DNA of 64,000 nt, taken from the IMG/VR virus record IMGVR_UViG_3300042549_006197, positions 1-64,000 of that record, one strand, 5' to 3'. Numbering within the stretch: position 1 is the first letter of the stretch; each line of letters opens with the position of its first letter. A program made the position numbers and the translations under genes. The DNA is from a virus (Duplodnaviria; Caudoviricetes). Shown here in pieces: positions 2,168-44,725 of this stretch. The notes beneath the pieces were generated by a model. That model was given only the letters and a program-made list of their open reading frames with translations. It did no database searches and was not told where the DNA came from.

Positions 2168-2272
2168 TAGTAAGACCATCAGGGAAATGGTGGAGATACT
2201 ATGCTCCCCGCACCCTTAGCGGGGATATGAGAGACGTAATTTATACACCCATAGGTCTCGGTTAACGGGTGT
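2168..2272 (-). ncRNA. Structured psbA 5' leader, PhotoRC-II-like RNA motif
   Basis: Minus strand CACCCG..CCGAGACC..GGGTG..CGTCTCTC, CCCCGC-TAAGGGT-GCGGGG and ACCAT..ATGGT pairings; position and look match the cyanophage psbA-leader motif as recalled. Confidence 0.7.
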
Positions 2273-2321
2273 TGACAATGTTAAGGATTGTTAGAAATCC
2301 GTAACATTTGTTTACCTATTT

Positions 2322-22463: not shown

Positions 22464-23200
22464 AGTTTAAATGTGGGGATGGGTTCCATTTTATGTTTGT
22501 TTTGGGAGTTGAATTTTTGAAGAACTTCAACACCAGGACCAGTTCCGTACTCCATTGCTTCTTCCAGTTGAACATATGAAGCTCCAAGTTGATCTTCATC
22601 TGTTCTACCATCATCCCACAGACCATCTGTAGGAGCAGCGTTAATAATACGTTCGTCTACACCAAAGTGTTTGCCAAGTTCCCATACTTCAGTCTTATAC
22701 AGATCTGCGATAGGAGCAATGTCAACTCCCCCGTCACCATATTTAGTATAGAACCCGACACCATAATCTTCAACCTTGTTACCAGTACCCACTACAATAC
22801 CACCGACAGTTGTAGCAACTTGATAAAGAGTTACCATGCGAAGACGTGAACGACTGTTTGCAAGAGCGTGTTTGTCAGCACCAAATTCGCGCATGGTGAA
22901 TTCAAAGGTATTAAACACTTTTGAAAGATCAAACTTTTGAACTACAACGTTACTAAAGTTTGATTCAAGCCACTCAAGGTGAGCATCAGAAAGAGTTTCT
23001 TGTTCTTCCTTTTGATAGATTGGCATTCCCAGCGTGTACACAGGAAGACCAGTCTTAGCAGCAAGAGTTGATGACACTGCAGAGTCAATACCTCCAGAGA
23101 CACCAATAACAAATGCTTTAATATTAAATTGTTCTGCGTAGTCCTTTAACCAAGAAACGATACGTGTTTCAAGTTCAGAATAGTTTTCAATGCGGTTCAT
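22460..23200 (-). CDS. nadE: NH3-dependent NAD+ synthetase
   Basis: GVSGGIDS, RLRM, GTGNKVE, GFYTKYGDG, DLYKTEV, QLG. Confidence 0.93.
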   Translation of the reverse strand: MNRIENYSELETRIVSWLKDYAEQFNIKAFVIGVSGGIDSAVSSTLAAKTGLPVYTLGMPIYQKEEQETLSDAHLEWLESNFSNVVVQKFDLSKVFNTFEFTMREFGADKHALANSRSRLRMVTLYQVATTVGGIVVGTGNKVEDYGVGFYTKYGDGGVDIAPIADLYKTEVWELGKHFGVDERIINAAPTDGLWDDGRTDEDQLGASYVQLEEAMEYGTGPGVEVLQKFNSQNKHKMEPIPTFKL

Positions 23201-24258
23201 TGTTCAGCGTGTTTTTTCTCAATTTGTTCGTTAATCCATGCGTATGTTTTAGCAATACCCTCTTCGAGAGTCATGGAGTAGTCCCATCCTAACTTAGAAC
23301 GAATAAGATCGTTGTTACTATTGCGACCACGGACACCCAATGGTGCATTTAAAATATGTTCTTTATCAACATATTTGTTTGCTACCTTTGCAGCAGTATC
23401 CACAAGTTGATTGATAGTAACCATTTCTTCAGATCCAATATTCACTGGACCCATGAAATCACTTTCCATCATTCTACGGGTTGCTTCGATGCATTCATCG
23501 ATGTACAGGAAGGAACGAGTCTGTAAACCGTCTCCCCACACCTCGATTTTTCCTCCTGCGACTGGAAGATAGGCCACCTTGCGGCAGATTGCTGCGGGTG
23601 CTTTTTCTCTTCCACCTTCCCAGGTTCCTTCAGGACCAAAGATATTATGGTAGCGAGCGACCCGTACAGGGATGCCATGGTTACGGTTATAAGCGAAAAA
23701 GAGTCGCTCACTAAAAAGTTTTTCCCAACCGTACTCTGAGTCTGGAGCAGCAGGATATGCAGATTCTTCACGACAATCGGGATTATCGGGATCAAGTTGA
23801 TTATATTCTGGATACATACAAGCAGAACCAGAATAAAAAATCTTAGTTACATTTTTACCAAGGCGCTCGTTCATCTGACGCTGCATTTCAAGAATGTTCA
23901 GATTGATTGCGCAGGAGTTATGCATGATTTCTGCATCGTTTTCTCCAGTGAAAACGAAACCTGCTCCCCCCATATCAGCTGCAAACTGATAGATCTCATC
24001 AAATGGTTGAATATAACGATAAGGAACTGACTGATAAAAATTACCAGCATCTCCTTTCCATTCGAGAACACGAGCAACAAAATCTACATCGCGGAGATCT
24101 CCAACAACAAATTCATTTGCCTCTGTTTTGGAAAACTCAGGACGCTTAAGATCTACACCACGAACCCAATATCCTTCAGCTCGCAGTCTTTTTACCATGT
24201 GACTTCCAATGAAACCACCAGCACCAAGGACCAGTGCCTTCTTAACGTATTGACTCAT
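23197..24258 (-). CDS. NAD-dependent nucleotide-sugar epimerase, GDP-mannose 3,5-epimerase-like
   Basis: GAGGFIG, AADMGGAGF, SACMYP, YGWEK, GGREKAPAA, GVRGRNS. Confidence 0.88.
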   Translation of the reverse strand: MSQYVKKALVLGAGGFIGSHMVKRLRAEGYWVRGVDLKRPEFSKTEANEFVVGDLRDVDFVARVLEWKGDAGNFYQSVPYRYIQPFDEIYQFAADMGGAGFVFTGENDAEIMHNSCAINLNILEMQRQMNERLGKNVTKIFYSGSACMYPEYNQLDPDNPDCREESAYPAAPDSEYGWEKLFSERLFFAYNRNHGIPVRVARYHNIFGPEGTWEGGREKAPAAICRKVAYLPVAGGKIEVWGDGLQTRSFLYIDECIEATRRMMESDFMGPVNIGSEEMVTINQLVDTAAKVANKYVDKEHILNAPLGVRGRNSNNDLIRSKLGWDYSMTLEEGIAKTYAWINEQIEKKHAEQ

Positions 24259-24284: not shown

Positions 24285-24313
24285 ATCATACAGAAAAAGG
24301 AGGTTATTGTCAA
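24285..24313 (-). promoter_or_regulatory. Sigma70 promoter for glycan cluster
   Basis: TTGACA-17-TATGAT; the -35 overlaps the stop codon of the upstream oxygenase gene. Confidence 0.7.
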
Positions 24314-25347
24314 GTACATGGGATGTGTATAACATCGTTAAATTGTTCCATTGAAAGTCTTGTAAGTGCTAAAAAAGTTCCAGCTTTAATTGCAAAAGAA
24401 AATCTATCCATCTGTGCCAAATTTGAAAGAGGCATTACTTTGTGTTTAATTGAAGAATCAAAAACTATAACTCTCCCCGGCTTAAAATCGACTGCCTTAT
24501 GAAAAGGTGAATCTTCGCTGTAAAATTTAATATCTCCAGCCCACACATCATCCCATTCAATATTTGGATATATTAGAATTGTTACTCCATTTGAATTATT
24601 TGAAAGATCGACGTGAGCACTTGTTGTAGTTGATTTTGTATAATGCCCAATATAATATTGTGTGAGAAATAGATCTTGTCCCAATTCATTTGCAATTCTT
24701 CTAAAATATGGTATCAAACCAGTTCTTATAAGATCCTCTTTAGACAAGTGGGAGGCAAATCTGGTGGATCGATCTTTATCTTTAGAAAAACCGTTACTTA
24801 CATGTGAACAGATATATTGTGAGTTTGTCGCAAAAGCATATAAACTATGCGTAAAATGATATGGAAACAAATTATCCATTATTTTAATATCATTTTCGAC
24901 TGAATTTTTTGAAAATGGATTTATTTTTCTATTTAAAGAATCTAAAAGAATATTATATAATCGTATATAATAATCGGATTTATTTGAGTTTAAAGATATG
25001 AGATTTACCTTACAAATTTTTACTATATCGGATAATGTTTGATTGTCCCAACTAAAATTTCCCCTTAAAATATCATTTTCTCTGTCTTTTAATAAACACA
25101 TTTCATATACTAATTTTTCAGCATATTCTCCTATTTCATTTCGTATCAATTCTCTATCATTTTCTATTGTTTGAACAGTCACATTAAAATAGCAAGTGCC
25201 GTAGATTGAATGATACAATCCTGCATTACATACGTCTTCCGACATATTTTCTTTTCTTAATATTTCATATACTTCAATACAATGGTTGATAAATTTTTCG
25301 GTTGCAATTGGAGATTGTTTAACCAATTCAATAAATTTTTCTACCAT
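24310..25347 (-). CDS. HD-like N-domain fused to 2OG-Fe(II) oxygenase
   Basis: H...AGLYHSIYGT N-domain; HVD...W..G...PGRVIVFDSSIKH...R; TATAAATA at 25373-25380. Confidence 0.8.
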   Translation of the reverse strand: MVEKFIELVKQSPIATEKFINHCIEVYEILRKENMSEDVCNAGLYHSIYGTCYFNVTVQTIENDRELIRNEIGEYAEKLVYEMCLLKDRENDILRGNFSWDNQTLSDIVKICKVNLISLNSNKSDYYIRLYNILLDSLNRKINPFSKNSVENDIKIMDNLFPYHFTHSLYAFATNSQYICSHVSNGFSKDKDRSTRFASHLSKEDLIRTGLIPYFRRIANELGQDLFLTQYYIGHYTKSTTTSAHVDLSNNSNGVTILIYPNIEWDDVWAGDIKFYSEDSPFHKAVDFKPGRVIVFDSSIKHKVMPLSNLAQMDRFSFAIKAGTFLALTRLSMEQFNDVIHIPCT

Positions 25348-25382
25348 AATTACATTCAAATTTTTAAAAAAATATTTATACT

Positions 25383-25409
25383 AAAAAGGGAGATTGATAT
25401 CAATCTCCC
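25383..25409 (-). terminator. Intrinsic terminator after RNA modules
   Basis: GGGAGATTGA-TA-TCAATCTCCC-TTTTT. Confidence 0.8.
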
Positions 25410-25416
25410 AATGATT

Positions 25417-25507
25417 CAGGCTCGCCACCAATTCTTTAACTGGAAATTGGAAACCAGGCGGGGTTGCCCCATCCGCACCACTTGTTTTTTAAAGAAACAA
25501 GAAACTT
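25417..25507 (-). ncRNA. Tandem pseudoknot RNA modules 3-4 (wcaG/manA-like motif)
   Basis: GTTTCTTGTTTC..AAAAAACAAG-TGGTGCGG..CCGC-CTGGTTTCCAATTTCCAG..AAAGAATTGG-TGGCGAGCC; lies upstream of a nucleotide-sugar epimerase. Confidence 0.75.
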
Positions 25508-26216
25508 ATTTTTTTCTAAAAAACCTAAATGGGCATTTGGAGATTTTATTAGAATCAAATATAATATCATGATATTTAAATCCCAAACTGTGTCGTTTTG
25601 AATTTACAAAAAATATTCTTTTATACATATCCGAAAGTTGTCGTGGATTGATTTCATCATAAATTAAATTAAAATTATCATTATGATTTTTACTATGAAA
25701 TTTTATACAGTATAAAGGATCTCCTCTATTAATAATTATAGGTTTATCTCTATCCACAACAACTGCCCCAATATTAATTAATCTGGGCCAATTACTCAAA
25801 TTAAACCACCCACCACAATGATAAAAATTATTTTTTAAAGATGTTAATGGGTGAGGAAGAATTGATATCCAAATGTTTTTATCTTTAGTCCAAAAAAAAT
25901 TACTATACAAATTTGCAATCTGAATTATTGAATGTTTACCGTTATTCCAATTTTTTGCAAGACTAACGTATTCATCAAATTCGTTTTGATTTAAATTATT
26001 TGAATGAACATAATCAGAATTTGTATCTATTTGTAGATGTAAATTTGATGATGCATAGACAGTAAAAATTTTAGAACTTTGATGAGCCCATACTGGACAA
26101 GATGAAAGAATAGAATCTTCCGAATAACTTGTATCAATTTTTATTGGTACATGCAAATTCTCCACAGAAGATGGAGATTTTGGATCAGGATGATAAAAAA
26201 TTTTTTTACTTTTCAT
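25506..26216 (-). CDS. AT-rich hypothetical protein
   Basis: 236-aa ORF with CP.., GGWF, RGDPL..I.F and KCPF motifs. Confidence 0.75.
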   Translation of the reverse strand: MKSKKIFYHPDPKSPSSVENLHVPIKIDTSYSEDSILSSCPVWAHQSSKIFTVYASSNLHLQIDTNSDYVHSNNLNQNEFDEYVSLAKNWNNGKHSIIQIANLYSNFFWTKDKNIWISILPHPLTSLKNNFYHCGGWFNLSNWPRLINIGAVVVDRDKPIIINRGDPLYCIKFHSKNHNDNFNLIYDEINPRQLSDMYKRIFFVNSKRHSLGFKYHDIIFDSNKISKCPFRFFRKK

Positions 26217-26220
26217 TTTA

Positions 26221-26264
26221 GGTCAAATTGACTCCACCACTTAGTTTTTCGAAACTAAGAAAAG
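26221..26264 (-). ncRNA. RNA module 2 (manA-like)
   Basis: TTTCTTAGTTTCGAAAAACTAAG-TGGTGGAGTCAATTTGACC, same architecture as modules 3-4. Confidence 0.6.
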
Positions 26265-26474
26265 TTGGGATAACTTTGATATTTCGGAGATACCAAAGAA
26301 TGCACATAAGAATAGCACATCCCAAAGTTTAAGTTTAATTGCAAAAGGTATTGTAAGTAAACCTCCAACACATTTTAACAACAAACCATTTTTAAAATCT
26401 CCCCATAACATGATTTGATAACCAGTAATAAGGAAAAGGTTTCCAAGATACCTTAAGATACTTGATTTAGACAT
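26241..26474 (-). CDS. Small multi-TM membrane protein
   Basis: Three hydrophobic segments; similar to 56319-56576. Confidence 0.7.
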   Translation of the reverse strand: MSKSSILRYLGNLFLITGYQIMLWGDFKNGLLLKCVGGLLTIPFAIKLKLWDVLFLCAFFGISEISKLSQLFLVSKN

Positions 26475-26475
26475 A

Positions 26476-26519
26476 GGGGGTTTGCTCCCGACCAGTGCTG
26501 TTATAGACCATCCGTGTCT
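26476..26519 (-). ncRNA. RNA module 1 (manA-like 5' part)
   Basis: AGAC-ACGGATG-GTCT..TGGTCGGGAGCAAACCCC; shares the TGGT..G.A junction with the other modules. Confidence 0.55.
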
Positions 26520-26743
26520 TCATCATCACGTACATAACAAGGTACACCTTCAGGATCAAGCCATTTGGTGTATTCAAAATCTTCCATAGCAGTTGCCAAT
26601 TGCATTCCATTATCACACAAGTACATGTCAGAATAACGCTTAGTCCAACTATCTGCTTTTTGAATTCGATAGTCGGGGAACCCATTTTCTAGGGTTCCAC
26701 ATTCTACATAACGATAAGGAAATCGTTCAAGAATAATGTTCAT
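26501..26743 (-). CDS. Hypothetical protein
   Basis: 80-aa ORF coupled to upstream gene. Confidence 0.75.
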   Translation of the reverse strand: MNIILERFPYRYVECGTLENGFPDYRIQKADSWTKRYSDMYLCDNGMQLATAMEDFEYTKWLDPEGVPCYVRDDEDTDGL

Positions 26744-26955
26744 GCTACTTCGACAGATTCGAGATCATTGAAGACATATTCCATAAGCATTTCATAGTCA
26801 TCCAGAGGATCACCAGAGAATACCACACCTTCGCTTTCATAGTAACGACGAACCTTTTTATAAAGTTTTGGATTCTTTACATCAAGATAGAAATCGCCGC
26901 TAGCTGCGCCACGAAGAGTTTGAATGTCTTTCTTGAATTTTGCTGTGAGAGTCAT
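26740..26955 (-). CDS. Hypothetical protein
   Basis: 71-aa ORF downstream of a promoter. Confidence 0.75.
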   Translation of the reverse strand: MTLTAKFKKDIQTLRGAASGDFYLDVKNPKLYKKVRRYYESEGVVFSGDPLDDYEMLMEYVFNDLESVEVA

Positions 26956-26977: not shown

Positions 26978-27007
26978 ATTATACTAGTTTGACAGGTGAC
27001 CTGTCAA
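26978..27007 (-). promoter_or_regulatory. Sigma70 promoter with perfect palindrome over the -35
   Basis: TTGACA-18-TATAAT; TTGACAGGT-G-ACCTGTCAA at 26989-27007. Confidence 0.7.
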
Positions 27008-27008
27008 G

Positions 27009-27081
27009 TGCTCCTTGAGGGGATTGAACCCACCTTAGCCGAATTATGAGTTCGGTGCATTCACCAGATTGCTAAAGGAGC
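27009..27081 (-). tRNA. tRNA with CAT anticodon (elongator Met or Ile2)
   Basis: GCTCCTT/AAGGAGC acceptor stem, CCGAA-CTCATAA-TTCGG, GGTTCAATCC. Confidence 0.9.
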
Positions 27082-27168: not shown

Positions 27169-27240
27169 TGGGAACACTGGGAGTTGAACCCAGACTAACC
27201 CGTTATAAGCAGGCCGCTCTGACCATTAAGCTATGCTCCC
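27169..27240 (-). tRNA. tRNA-Ile(TAT)
   Basis: GGGAGCA/TGTTCCC acceptor stem, anticodon loop CTTATAA, GGTTCAACTCC. Confidence 0.88.
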
Positions 27241-27475: not shown

Positions 27476-27547
27476 TCGGGGCGACAGGGCTCGAACCTGT
27501 GACCTCTGGTTCCCAAAACCAGCATTCTACCGCTGAACTACGCCCCG
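27476..27547 (-). tRNA. tRNA-Pro(TGG)
   Basis: CGGGGCG/CGCCCCG acceptor stem, CTGGT-TTTGGGA-ACCAG. Confidence 0.93.
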
Positions 27548-29651: not shown

Positions 29652-29736
29652 CGGAAGGGGTGGGATTCGAACCCACGGATGCTTTCACATCGCTAGTTTT
29701 CAAGACTAGAGCCTTCAACCACTCGACCACCCTTCC
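29652..29736 (-). tRNA. tRNA-Ser(TGA)
   Basis: Long variable arm; CTAGT-CTTGAAA-ACTAG. Confidence 0.95.
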
Positions 29737-30547: not shown

Positions 30548-30619
30548 TGGGCGAAGAGGGGATCGAACCCCCGACAGCTTGCTTGTAAGGCAAGAGCTCT
30601 ACCGCTGAGCTATTCGCCC
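30548..30619 (-). tRNA. tRNA-Val(TAC)
   Basis: CTTGC-CTTACAA-GCAAG; complete cloverleaf. Confidence 0.95.
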
Positions 30620-30623
30620 TAGG

Positions 30624-30696
30624 CTCCCCCACCTGGACTCGAACCAGGAACCCCAGTGTTAACAGCACCGTGCTCTGCCAATTGAGCTATAGAGGA
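30624..30696 (-). tRNA. tRNA-Asn(GTT)
   Basis: CGGTG-CTGTTAA-CACTG; complete cloverleaf. Confidence 0.93.
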
Positions 30697-30716: not shown

Positions 30717-30788
30717 AGCGGATGACCCGATTCGAACGGGCGACGAACTGCTTGGAAGGCAGCCATTCTACCACTGAATTACATCCGC
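30717..30788 (-). tRNA. tRNA-Gly(TCC)
   Basis: GCGGATG/CATCCGC acceptor stem; loop CTTCCAA. Confidence 0.95.
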
Positions 30789-30825: not shown

Positions 30826-30899
30826 CAGGTCCAGCAGGACTCGAACCTGCGACACACAGCTTAGAAGGCTGTTGTTCTATCCATCTGAACTATGGACCC
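30826..30899 (-). tRNA. tRNA-Arg(TCT)
   Basis: ACAGC-CTTCTAA-GCTGT; complete cloverleaf. Confidence 0.95.
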
Positions 30900-44652: not shown

Positions 44653-44725
44653 TGGAGATAAGGAGACTCGAACTCCTGACATCCTGCTTGCAAAGCAGGC
44701 GCTCTACCAACTGAGCTATATCCCC
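44653..44725 (-). tRNA. tRNA-Ala(TGC)
   Basis: GGGGATA/TATCTCC with G3:U70; CCTGC-TTTGCAA-GCAGG. Confidence 0.96.

What the first reader, a model, noticed from the sequence alone, without database searches (positions are those of the whole stretch)
25383..26519. Modular pseudoknot RNA whose units are interleaved with protein-coding genes
Seen: four related minus-strand RNA units, each ending in a TGG junction and a small hairpin. Unit 4 is a clean H-type pseudoknot (S1 CUGG/CCAG, loop UUU, S2 CCAAUU/AAUUGG, A-rich loop). Unit 3 has the same design with different pairs (AAG/CUU, CUUGUU/AACAAG), and unit 2 keeps S2 as CUUAGUU/AACUAAG, so S2 covaries across copies. Units 1 and 2 are separated by a 77-aa membrane ORF, units 2 and 3 by a 236-aa AT-rich ORF, and the array ends in a terminator. 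Recalled: the cyanophage manA/wcaG motifs carry such units contiguously near tRNAs and sugar-epimerase genes. Inference: the units act independently (processing or stability signals, protein-binding decoys, or mimics of type III antitoxin repeats) and their junctions accept gene cassettes.
Basis: partly seen in the sequence, partly recalled or inferred. Interest (0 to 1): 0.85.

Follow-up and report, generated by a model that had tools for sequence, protein, structure and literature searches.

The report
Split wcaG RNA array in cyanophage
A known cyanophage RNA motif (wcaG) turns out to be the end of a longer chain of small folded RNA modules, and in this phage two protein genes sit between the modules, which suggests the modules work one by one and that their joints are places where genes come and go.

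Summary
Units 3+4 (25414-25509, minus strand) are a full-length Rfam wcaG RNA (102.9 bits). Units 1 and 2 are real too. A model built without the window finds unit 1 only at 26485-26528 (51.7 bits, E 5e-15). A profile of 44 other loci finds unit 2 at 26220-26270 (E 6.6e-16).

In 79 of 80 non-redundant wcaG loci from viral contigs, extra modules lie upstream. They are contiguous in 31 loci and separated by ORFs or gaps in 48. One contiguous upstream pair scores as wcaG above Rfam's threshold (45.9 vs 42 bits). So the window's units 1+2 read as a second wcaG-like motif split by the 77-aa gene.

Near-identical relatives lack one or both ORFs, with clean joints. The ORFs between modules fall into 12 sequence clusters.

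The array runs from a consensus promoter to a terminator. wcaG therefore ends an operon here rather than leading one.

No manA match was found. Unit 2 has no pseudoknot. Function is untested. My best guess is autonomous intercistronic processing, stability or protein-binding modules.

This is a new variant of a known RNA family, of moderate to high interest.

The parts
26978..27007 (-). Consensus sigma-70-type promoter (TTGACA, 18 nt, TATAAT). The -35 element lies in a small inverted repeat. It sits just upstream of the 71-aa ORF and is the likely start of the transcription unit that carries the array.
   Evidence: 12 of 12 hexamer matches; sequence read. Consensus match only; not shown to fire.
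26740..26955 (-). 71-aa ORF, the gp205-like first gene of the unit.
   Evidence: phrog_552, E 1.1e-25. Syntenic with syn9 gp205.
26501..26743 (-). 80-aa ORF (gp206-like). Its last codons and its stop codon (26501-26503) lie inside unit 1.
   Evidence: phrog_481, E 3.4e-45; sequence.
26475..26528 (-). Unit 1, a 'type II' module. It has hairpin AGAC/GUCU (26505-26519) with loop ACGGAUG, and an A-rich spacer. Junction CUGGUCG is at 26489-26495 and the connector hairpin GGG..CCC at 26476-26489. The AUG of the next ORF follows at 26472-26474.
   Evidence: R2 (built without the window): 51.7 bits, E 5e-15, the only hit in 64 kb. Family hairpin paired in 97.7% of cells, with all 4 pairs compensatory. 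Loop position 2 pairs with the spacer as CG 79, UA 29, other 1.
26241..26474 (-). 77-aa hydrophobic ORF between units 1 and 2. Its stop codon (26241-26243) lies in the 3' arm of the unit 2 hairpin.
   Evidence: phrog_2318, E 5e-20. The same family sits in this slot in 28 of 80 loci. It is absent with clean joints in L071. Membrane location is judged from composition only.
26221..26262 (-). Unit 2, a 'type I' module without a pseudoknot. It has hairpin CUUAGUU/AACUAAG (26240-26259), junction UGGUGG (26234-26239) and connector GAGUCAAUUUGACC (26221-26234).
   Evidence: nhmmer E 6.6e-16; R1 27 bits, E 2.1e-5; Rfam wcaG 24.8 bits, E 0.045. Stem covariation; no pseudoknot.
25506..26216 (-). 236-aa AT-rich ORF between unit 2 and wcaG. 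Its stop codon (25506-25508) overlaps the 5' pseudoknot strand of P1.
   Evidence: phrog_17480, E 1.6e-32; 43 homologues; 25.9% G+C. It is absent with clean joints in L119 and L071. It is only 71.9% identical to the L072 allele, while the flanks are 92-98% identical.
25414..25509 (-). Canonical wcaG RNA, units 3+4: P1 25481-25501, P2 25459-25471, P3 25428-25450, with two pseudoknots.
   Evidence: Rfam RF01761, 102.9 bits, E 1.1e-18, model positions 1-98. Pseudoknot covariation across loci.
25383..25409 (-). Intrinsic terminator: 9-bp stem GGGAGAUUG/CAAUCUCCC followed by UUUUU. Its loop holds a -35-like TTGATA (25398-25403), and TATAAA follows at 25375-25380.
   Evidence: The same layout is seen after wcaG in relatives: hairpin plus T5 in 59 of 76 unique contexts, -35-like in the hairpin in 43, -10-like after the T run in 52, both in 36. 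In the window the -10 is off-consensus and was not listed.
24310..25359 (-). 349-aa ORF (DUF6817 plus 2OG-Fe(II) oxygenase), downstream of the terminator. It is absent in L071.
   Evidence: Pfam PF20680, 1e-16, and PF13640, 2.1e-7; alignment.
24285..24313 (-). Second promoter-like site (TTGACA, 17 nt, TATGAT) carrying half of a terminator. It is a degenerate copy of the composite that follows wcaG in L071.
23197..24258 (-). 353-aa NAD-dependent sugar epimerase/dehydratase, the WcaG-like gene class that gave the RNA its name.
   Evidence: Pfam PF01370, 3.5e-36; phrog_540, 3e-79.

Best explanation
What it is:
- The region is one early transcription unit of a T4-like cyanophage. It runs from a consensus promoter (26978-27007) to an intrinsic terminator (25383-25409).
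- It carries a chain of small, self-folding RNA modules of the wcaG family.
- The last two modules are a canonical wcaG RNA.
- The first two (units 1 and 2) are the halves of a second, upstream wcaG-like motif. In other phages these halves are contiguous. Here the 77-aa gene splits them.
- A 236-aa gene sits between this upstream motif and wcaG.

Module design: an H-type pseudoknot or hairpin, then an invariant single-stranded YUGGUSG, then a small GGA-bearing connector hairpin.

Shown:
- Homology and covariation of all four units.
- Contiguous and ORF-bearing forms in relatives.
- Precise ORF-sized indels at the joints.
- One array per genome.
- A terminator after wcaG.

Inferred:
- Each module folds and works on its own, because the ORF-bearing forms still keep stems and junctions under selection.
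- The joints are tolerated insertion slots, and the conserved modules serve as flanking homology for gene exchange.

My committed guess for function, at about 35%: the modules are intercistronic and 3'-terminal signals read by one trans-acting factor (an RNase or an RNA-binding protein). They would process or stabilise the early polycistronic RNA. They are not a 5'-UTR riboswitch for the downstream sugar genes.
For: Identity:
- Rfam wcaG 102.9 bits.
- Unit 1: R2 51.7 bits, E 5e-15.
- Unit 2: nhmmer E 6.6e-16, with wcaG P1 as its second hit.

Structure:
- Compensatory changes in both unit types, including G-U pairs, which fit this strand only.
- An isolated loop-spacer pair, CG 79 / UA 29 / other 1, that played no part in selecting the sequences.
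- Pseudoknot covariation.

Modularity:
- 79 of 80 loci have extra modules. 31 are contiguous and 48 have ORFs or gaps.
- The contiguous pair in L026 scores 45.9 bits with Rfam wcaG.
- Series L071 / L119 / L072 and window.
- 51 ORFs in 12 clusters, including 2OG-Fe(II) oxygenases.
- ORF stop codons fall within -26 to +8 nt of the next module in 46 of 51 cases.
- Mosaic identity: 71.9% in the cassette against 92-98% in the flanks.
- RNA-library contigs of relatives join across the 236-aa ORF.

Operon end:
- Promoter and terminator.
- Hairpin plus T5 after wcaG in 59 of 76 contexts.

Single locus:
- R2 hits lie only beside wcaG in 3 of 4 complete genomes. Syn9 has only one weak hit (E 9.9e-4), elsewhere.
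Against: - No RNA ends, probing or binding data exist. The RNA contigs cannot show transcripts, ends or strand.
- Unit 1 is not stable by energy (z +0.26), and the MFE fold does not use its family hairpin.
- Unit 2 has lost its pseudoknot, as expected of a decaying remnant.
- Contiguous arrays without ORFs have no cistrons to separate, which fits a binding or sponge role as well as processing.
- In about 7 of the 17 of 76 contexts that lack a terminator, an ORF follows wcaG directly, as a 5'-UTR element would.
- The loci were collected with one 15-mer of the P1-P2 junction, and the units were picked by a regex that demands perfect stems. Paired percentages are therefore inflated. Even so, 158 of 184 junction contexts had a hairpin.
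- The array is at one locus per genome, so it is not a general recombination device.
Confidence: 0.55

Rival explanations
1. Protein sponge or decoy. The transcript, or pieces of it, acts in trans early in infection. Its repeated YUGGUSG/GGA sites would soak up a host or phage RNA-binding protein or nuclease, for instance RNase E, a GGA-binding regulator, or the toxin of an RNA-antitoxin system.
For: - The same single-stranded motif is invariant in every module, and copy number varies from 2 to 5.
- Contiguous ORF-free arrays exist in 31 of 80 loci.
- It is driven by an early-type promoter and ends in a terminator, like a 3'-end-derived small RNA.
- Type II loops all carry GGA-like cores.
- An abiF RNA motif lies in the same tRNA region of L012 and of S-CREM1 (PMC9964418, Table 4, passages seen).
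Against: - No partner is known.
- There are no near-identical tandem repeats.
- No defence or toxin family was found in six neighbouring proteins.
- That GGA-in-loop sites are typical of CsrA/RsmA targets is recalled, not tested, and I did not check whether the hosts have such a protein.
Confidence: 0.22
2. Riboswitch or other cis-regulator, the published view of wcaG. The pseudoknots would bind a metabolite and set read-through of the terminator into the downstream oxygenase and epimerase genes. The upstream units would be extra aptamers.
For: - Weinberg et al. 2010 rate wcaG as a probable cis-regulator and riboswitch candidate upstream of exopolysaccharide and high-light genes (PMC2864571, passages seen).
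- An aptamer-like fold is followed by a terminator.
- A WcaG-like epimerase lies downstream.
- An ORF follows wcaG directly in a minority of loci.
Against: - Terminator stems vary freely and show no evident pairing with conserved wcaG bases.
- A promoter-like site overlaps or follows the terminator in 52 of 76 contexts, so downstream genes need no read-through.
- Downstream genes differ widely: hli genes, tRNAs, oxygenase, epimerase.
- Aptamers split by whole genes have no precedent known to me (recalled).
Confidence: 0.12
3. Units 1 and 2 are only a decaying tandem duplicate of wcaG, kept because they overlap gene ends and start sites. The real element is wcaG alone, and the interleaving is an accident of gene insertion.
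For: - Unit 2 has no pseudoknot.
- Units 1 and 2 fold weakly.
- The Rfam score of the split copy is below threshold.
- Syn9 has wcaG alone.
Against: - Compensatory changes persist in units that follow an ORF. The protein ends they encode change with the stems.
- Junction bases are invariant over 45 and 109 distinct sequences.
- 79 of 80 loci keep at least one extra module.
Confidence: 0.08

Closest known systems
wcaG RNA motif (Rfam RF01761; Weinberg et al. 2010, Genome Biol 11:R31; passages read)
   Same: Units 3+4 are a full-length member, with three stems, two pseudoknots and a cyanomyovirus setting. A sugar-epimerase gene lies further downstream.
   Different: - As seen in the main text, the published motif is a single roughly 98-nt element placed in presumed 5' UTRs.
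- Here it is the last part of a longer array of 3 to 5 modules, genes sit between the modules, and it is followed by a terminator and a promoter-like site.
manA RNA motif (Rfam RF01745)
   Same: It shares the habitat (marine, T4-like cyanophages) and is also a pseudoknot-bearing riboswitch candidate. In S-CREM1 it lies about 370 nt from wcaG (PMC9964418, Table 4).
   Different: No manA match was found in the window, its record, four complete relatives or five ORF-free loci. The control genomes did not ring either, so those two searches are weak.
PeSLs, the composite promoter-terminator motifs that flank shuffled ORFs in T4-like phages (Arbiol 2010, PMC2839356, listing and abstract start only; Comeau 2014, PMC4122927, one passage)
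   Same: - Conserved short structured elements at the borders of variable ORFs in a plastic region of a T4-like genome.
- The terminator/promoter composite after wcaG, and its half-copy before the epimerase, look like PeSLs.
   Different: - The wcaG-family modules carry no promoter and are pseudoknotted RNAs with covariation.
- They occur at one locus per genome, not many.
- The PeSL passages I read do not mention cyanophages (0 occurrences). Puxty 2015 found few PeSL-like sites in S-PM2 (PMC4503421).
Intercistronic RNase III sites of the T7 early operon (recalled, not checked here)
   Same: Structured elements between the cistrons of an early phage polycistronic RNA. They work one by one and leave stable 3' hairpins.
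   Different: T7 sites are long irregular duplexes cut by a known host enzyme. Here the elements are short pseudoknots with a conserved single-stranded motif, and no cleavage is known.
Type III antitoxin RNA repeats such as ToxI, and phage mimics of them (recalled)
   Same: Tandem small pseudoknot-forming RNA units that act one by one, each binding a protein. Phages can carry mimics.
   Different: There are no near-identical direct repeats, the units are of two sub-types, and there is no toxin gene nearby.

Membership tests
wcaG RNA (RF01761) | Scores at or above Rfam's gathering score (42 bits) with the family covariance model | tested here: met
   Units 3+4 score 102.9 bits over model positions 1-98. 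For units 1+2 as they stand in the window it is not met: 24.8 bits, E 0.045, covering unit 2 only. The contiguous counterpart in L026 meets it at 45.9 bits. L071 does not, at 27.0 bits.
wcaG RNA (RF01761) | Three stems P1, P2, P3 with covariation | tested here: met
   The Rfam alignment shows all pairs standard. P1 and P3 stems vary with compensation across loci.
wcaG RNA (RF01761) | Hairpin loops pair with upstream flanks (two pseudoknots) | tested here: met
   P3: at least 4 bp in 40 of 43 unique loci, with six or more covarying pair sets. P1: at least 3 bp in 67 of 71 (mean 3.73 against 2.95 with shuffled flanks). That the family has two pseudoknots is partly recalled. The figure legend seen names a pseudoknot for manA only.
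wcaG RNA (RF01761) | Lies in the 5' UTR of exopolysaccharide or high-light genes (cis-regulatory placement) | tested here: inconclusive
   An oxygenase and a WcaG-like epimerase lie downstream. However, a terminator and promoter-like sites lie between them and the RNA, and the RNA directly follows the stop codon of the 236-aa ORF.
manA RNA (RF01745) | Match to the family covariance model | tested here: not met
   There was no match at the gathering score in the window, none at E up to 10 in 25300-26800, and none in ORF-free relatives at E up to 1.
PeSL (promoter-early stem-loop cassettes of T4-like phages) | Early promoter joined to a stem-loop or terminator, in many copies, flanking variable ORFs | tested here: not met
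   The RNA modules hold no promoter and occur at one locus per genome. Only the element after wcaG is of this kind: 36 of 76 contexts have the hairpin, a -35-like site in the hairpin and a -10-like site after it.
Type III toxin-antitoxin antitoxin RNA | Near-identical tandem repeats next to an endoribonuclease toxin gene | tested here: not met
   Tandem Repeats Finder found only an unrelated 12-nt repeat. PADLOC gave 0 families for six neighbouring proteins.

The most novel reading that the evidence does not exclude
The wcaG locus of T4-like cyanophages is an RNA-defined cassette array. It is a chain of autonomous pseudoknot modules, each read by the same trans-acting factor. The joints between modules serve as expression slots where genes (membrane peptides, 2OG-Fe(II) oxygenases and others) are swapped between phages. 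A structured RNA family can thus be split by whole genes and keep working. If so, wcaG is not a riboswitch for sugar genes. It is the conserved end-piece of an early-operon scaffold, a functional analogue of integron or PeSL cassette systems built from RNA modules.
Probability: 0.25. Interest if true: 0.8.

Novelty: new variant of a known kind. Interest (0 to 1): 0.62.

Why it matters
wcaG has been an orphan riboswitch candidate since 2010.

This analysis makes three points:
- It is usually the last part of a longer modular array.
- It sits at the end of an early operon, in front of a terminator.
- Its modules tolerate whole genes between them.

Together these change which experiments make sense. 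End mapping and protein pull-downs become more useful than ligand screens. The analysis also names natural 'deletion series' among cultured and uncultured phages to run them on.

It further gives a concrete, datable example of gene gain and loss at fixed joints in a plastic region of cyanophage genomes. It also flags wcaG RNAs that are annotated as proteins in public records.

Tried and rejected
- **The genome search with RF01761 on the window's own record** gave no usable answer. I did not repeat it.
- **manA:** no match anywhere I looked. In some searches the control genomes did not ring either, so those two say little.
Natural ORF-free relatives were used instead.
- **Cellular genomes:** a 17-mer of the P1-P2 junction hit 120 or more stretches of genome contigs. 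None of the 80 listed loci holds a wcaG by R1.
- **RNA evidence:** three metatranscriptome runs hold 5-6% of the sampled words, as contigs only. Laid on the stretch, they show relatives' sequence over wcaG, unit 2 and the upstream ORFs, with joints that skip the 236-aa ORF. They show no ends, strand or expression level. Parts without cover mean nothing.
- **gp205-like and gp206-like proteins:** no Pfam family. The Atlas gave only viral hypothetical clusters. They give no hint of RNA binding.
- **A peptide encoded across wcaG** was rejected. Frames differ between loci after indels in the P2 loop, and the window has a stop codon there (read).
- **Frameshift or read-through signal** was rejected. 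No conserved slippery site exists, and the stop codon lies inside the pseudoknot strand.
- **Literature:** three searches on wcaG and cyanophage RNA terms found Weinberg 2010 and genome papers that merely list wcaG. None describes upstream modules or genes between them. Supplements, including Weinberg's Additional files 1-3, were not available to me.
Full report
**1. What is at the coordinates**

On the minus strand, 25414-25509 is a full-length match to Rfam wcaG (RF01761): 102.9 bits against a gathering score of 42, E 1.1e-18, model positions 1-98.

- The window is most of a 73-kb viral contig.
- Its DNA relatives in the phage collection are T4-like cyanomyoviruses: 303 records, 238 of them named Synechococcus phages.
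- In syn9, S-CAM1, S-SRM01 and S-RIM4, wcaG sits at the same place, after the gp205/gp206-like genes of the tRNA region.

**2. Are units 1 and 2 real?**

Yes, on comparative grounds.

How the loci were gathered:
- I collected loci from viral contigs with a 15-base pattern of the P1-P2 junction (120 stretches, capped).
- A covariance model of wcaG (R1) found full-length wcaG in 69 of the 85 sources searched.
- It also found weaker second hits upstream on the same strand in many of them, including the window's unit 2 (27 bits, E 2.1e-5).
- A regex survey of the window and all 124 loci then held (123 carry the pattern; 99 have a P1 hairpin; 86 have P1 and P3) showed two recurrent module types.

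The two module types:
- **Type I:** UUUC, a 6-7-bp stem, a loop that pairs with the 5' flank, then GUGG(U/C)G. P1, P3 and unit 2 are of this type.
- **Type II:** a 3-5-bp stem with a 7-nt loop holding GGA, an A-rich spacer, then CUGGU(C/G)G. Unit 1 is of this type.
- Each is followed by a small connector hairpin.

Unit 1:
- A model of type II built from 109 distinct units, none from the window, hits the window once, at 26485-26528 (51.7 bits, E 5e-15). The next hit scores 8.0 bits.

Unit 2:
- An nhmmer profile of 44 solitary type I units from other loci hits 26220-26270 at E 6.6e-16. Its only other hit is P1 of wcaG (E 0.0053), so units 2 and 3 are detectably related.

Structure support:
- Type II hairpin: 97.7% of cells paired, with changes on both sides at all four pairs.
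- Loop position 2 pairs with the third base before CUGG as C-G in 79, U-A in 29 and otherwise in 1 of 109 sequences. This pair played no part in choosing the sequences. It makes type II a minimal H-type pseudoknot of the same topology as type I.
- Solitary type I stem: 94.8% paired, with 4 of 7 pairs compensatory.

Caveats:
- The units were picked by a regex that demands perfect stems, which inflates paired percentages.
- As a check, 158 of 184 distinct junction contexts upstream of wcaG have such a hairpin. The other 26 are mostly chance matches inside genes.
- By energy alone, unit 1 is unremarkable (z +0.26). Unit 2 is modest (z -1.56). wcaG plus terminator is z -2.95.

**3. Pseudoknots**

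- The unit 4 pseudoknot is solid: at least 4 bp in 40 of 43 unique loci, with several covarying pair sets.
- Unit 3's is shorter but present: at least 3 bp in 67 of 71.
- Solitary type I units in ORF-free arrays mostly keep one (12 of 15).
- Those that follow an ORF, including the window's unit 2, do not: 2.27 bp against 2.25 for shuffled flanks.

So the array is not four clean pseudoknots. It is two clean ones, one bare hairpin, and one hairpin with a single tertiary pair.

**4. Interleaving with genes**

Of 99 true wcaG loci, 15 had too little upstream sequence and 4 were duplicates. Of the 80 analysed, 79 have at least one extra module within 1.1 kb upstream.

| Arrangement | Loci |
|---|---|
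| Contiguous arrays (e.g. II-II-wcaG 15, II-I-wcaG 6, I-II-II-wcaG 4) | 31 |
| ORFs or gaps over 90 nt between modules (commonest: II-[ORF]-I-wcaG, 19) | 48 |
| wcaG alone (syn9) | 1 |

- The window's form, II-[77 aa]-I-[236 aa]-wcaG, is shared with L072. It is one of six loci of the pattern II-[ORF]-I-[ORF]-wcaG.
- The 51 ORFs called between modules fall into 12 clusters:
  - the 77-aa hydrophobic protein (28; phrog_2318),
  - a 48-74-aa coiled-coil-like protein (10; phrog_35121),
  - a 59-67-aa protein (3),
  - the 236/250-aa protein (2; phrog_17480),
  - singletons, including 2OG-Fe(II) oxygenases and a DUF6171 protein.
- ORF ends fall within -26 to +8 nt of the next module's start in 46 of 51 cases.
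- In the window, all three upstream stop codons lie inside modules.

The four-way alignment of L071, L119, L072 and the window is a natural deletion series on a backbone more than 90% identical:
- L071 has neither ORF, and its epimerase gene follows the terminator directly.
- L119 adds the 77-aa ORF exactly between the unit 1 connector and the unit 2 hairpin.
- L072 and the window add the 236/250-aa ORF exactly between the unit 2 connector and P1.

Further points:
- Rfam's own wcaG model scores the contiguous upstream pair of L026 at 45.9 bits, above threshold. The window's units 1+2 are therefore best read as a second wcaG-like motif split by a gene.
- Contigs from three RNA libraries carry relatives' sequence that joins across the 236-aa ORF. 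This shows only that such forms exist.
- Between the window and L072, the flanks are 92-98% identical, but the 236-aa ORF is 71.9% and the unit 2 module 81%. This is the pattern expected if cassette alleles are exchanged by recombination in or near the modules. Faster drift of the ORF is not excluded.

**5. Transcriptional setting**

- A 12-of-12 consensus promoter lies at 26978-27007, just upstream of the 71-aa ORF.
- A 9-bp terminator with a T run lies at 25383-25409.

After wcaG, in 76 unique contexts:

| Feature | Contexts |
|---|---|
| Perfect hairpin of at least 6 bp plus T5 within 85 nt | 59 |
| -35-like hexamer inside the hairpin | 43 |
| -10-like hexamer just after the T run | 52 |
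| Both -35-like and -10-like | 36 |

- The remaining 17 contexts include a G+C hairpin plus TATAAT plus a tRNA gene, or an ORF that starts directly.
- This composite resembles the PeSLs of other T4-like phages.
- A half-copy precedes the epimerase gene at 24285-24313, so the 349-aa ORF is itself flanked by such elements.
- Hence wcaG here ends an early-type operon. The downstream genes have promoter-like sites of their own.

**6. Scope**

- In four complete genomes, type II modules occur only beside wcaG: two in S-CAM1, two in S-RIM4, one in S-SRM01. Syn9 has none there, only one weak hit (E 9.9e-4) elsewhere.
- The window has only this locus.
- The array is therefore one functional locus, not a genome-wide joint like PeSLs.

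**7. Mechanism**

Shown:
- Homology of the four units.
- Strand-specific structure, since G-U pairs occur.
- Modular copy number.
- Tolerance of ORFs.
- Position at the end of an operon.

Inferred:
- The modules fold and act singly.
- The invariant single-stranded junction plus the GGA connector is a recognition site for one trans-acting factor.

I commit to intercistronic or 3'-terminal processing and stability modules (about 35%). The sponge or decoy reading comes next (about 22%), then riboswitch (about 12%), then a decaying duplicate (about 8%).

The type III antitoxin idea fails on repeats and neighbours. The manA link fails on every search.

**8. Novelty**

- wcaG itself is known (PMC2864571).
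- Later papers that I could search only list it.
- I found no description of the upstream modules, of the split form, or of the terminator placement.

Verdict: a new variant, in the sense of an extended and gene-interrupted architecture, of a known RNA family.

Noticed in passing
window 2191-2283 (-): A full-length PhotoRC-II RNA (RF01717), 83 bits against a gathering score of 39.
   Followed up: no
window 27009-27081, 27169-27240, 27476-27547, 29652-29736, 30548-30619, 30624-30696, 30717-30788, 30826-30899, 44653-44725 (all -): Nine tRNA genes on the same strand. The array lies at the downstream edge of this tRNA region.
   Followed up: no
L001 2017-2175 (syn9 gp208); L003 2107-2313 (S-SRM01 gp295): Public records annotate hypothetical protein genes that overlap the wcaG RNA (L001 2073-2167; L003 2117-2214). 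These are probably RNA annotated as protein. In S-SRM01, the stretch holding the type I module and the likely 77-aa-type ORF is unannotated.
   Followed up: partly
window 25506-26216 (-): The 236-aa protein gives a confident model (pLDDT 88.9, pTM 0.84). Its best PDB matches are trimeric dUTPases and a dCTP deaminase-dUTPase. The matches are weak: E 7e-5 and up, TM 0.3-0.6, rmsd 6-13 Å, 5-12% identity. This is a lead only. It has no Pfam family.
   Followed up: partly
window 24285-24380 (-) and 25375-25409 (-): The 349-aa DUF6817 plus 2OG-Fe(II) oxygenase ORF is flanked by a terminator/promoter composite and a half-copy of it. L071 lacks the ORF and has a single composite. This looks like a PeSL-style cassette next to the RNA array.
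   Followed up: partly
L012 13624-13660 (+): An abiF RNA motif (RF03085, 50.7 bits against a gathering score of 37) lies among tRNA genes, 1.7 kb downstream of that locus's wcaG. The S-CREM1 paper reports the same neighbourhood.
   Followed up: no
L009 and L042, +88 to +122 after the P1-P2 junction of wcaG: A third type I unit follows wcaG directly, so arrays can also extend downstream.
   Followed up: no
L031, L032 (77-aa ORF followed by a type II unit): The same ORF family is followed by a type II module instead of the usual type I. ORFs and modules therefore re-assort.
   Followed up: no
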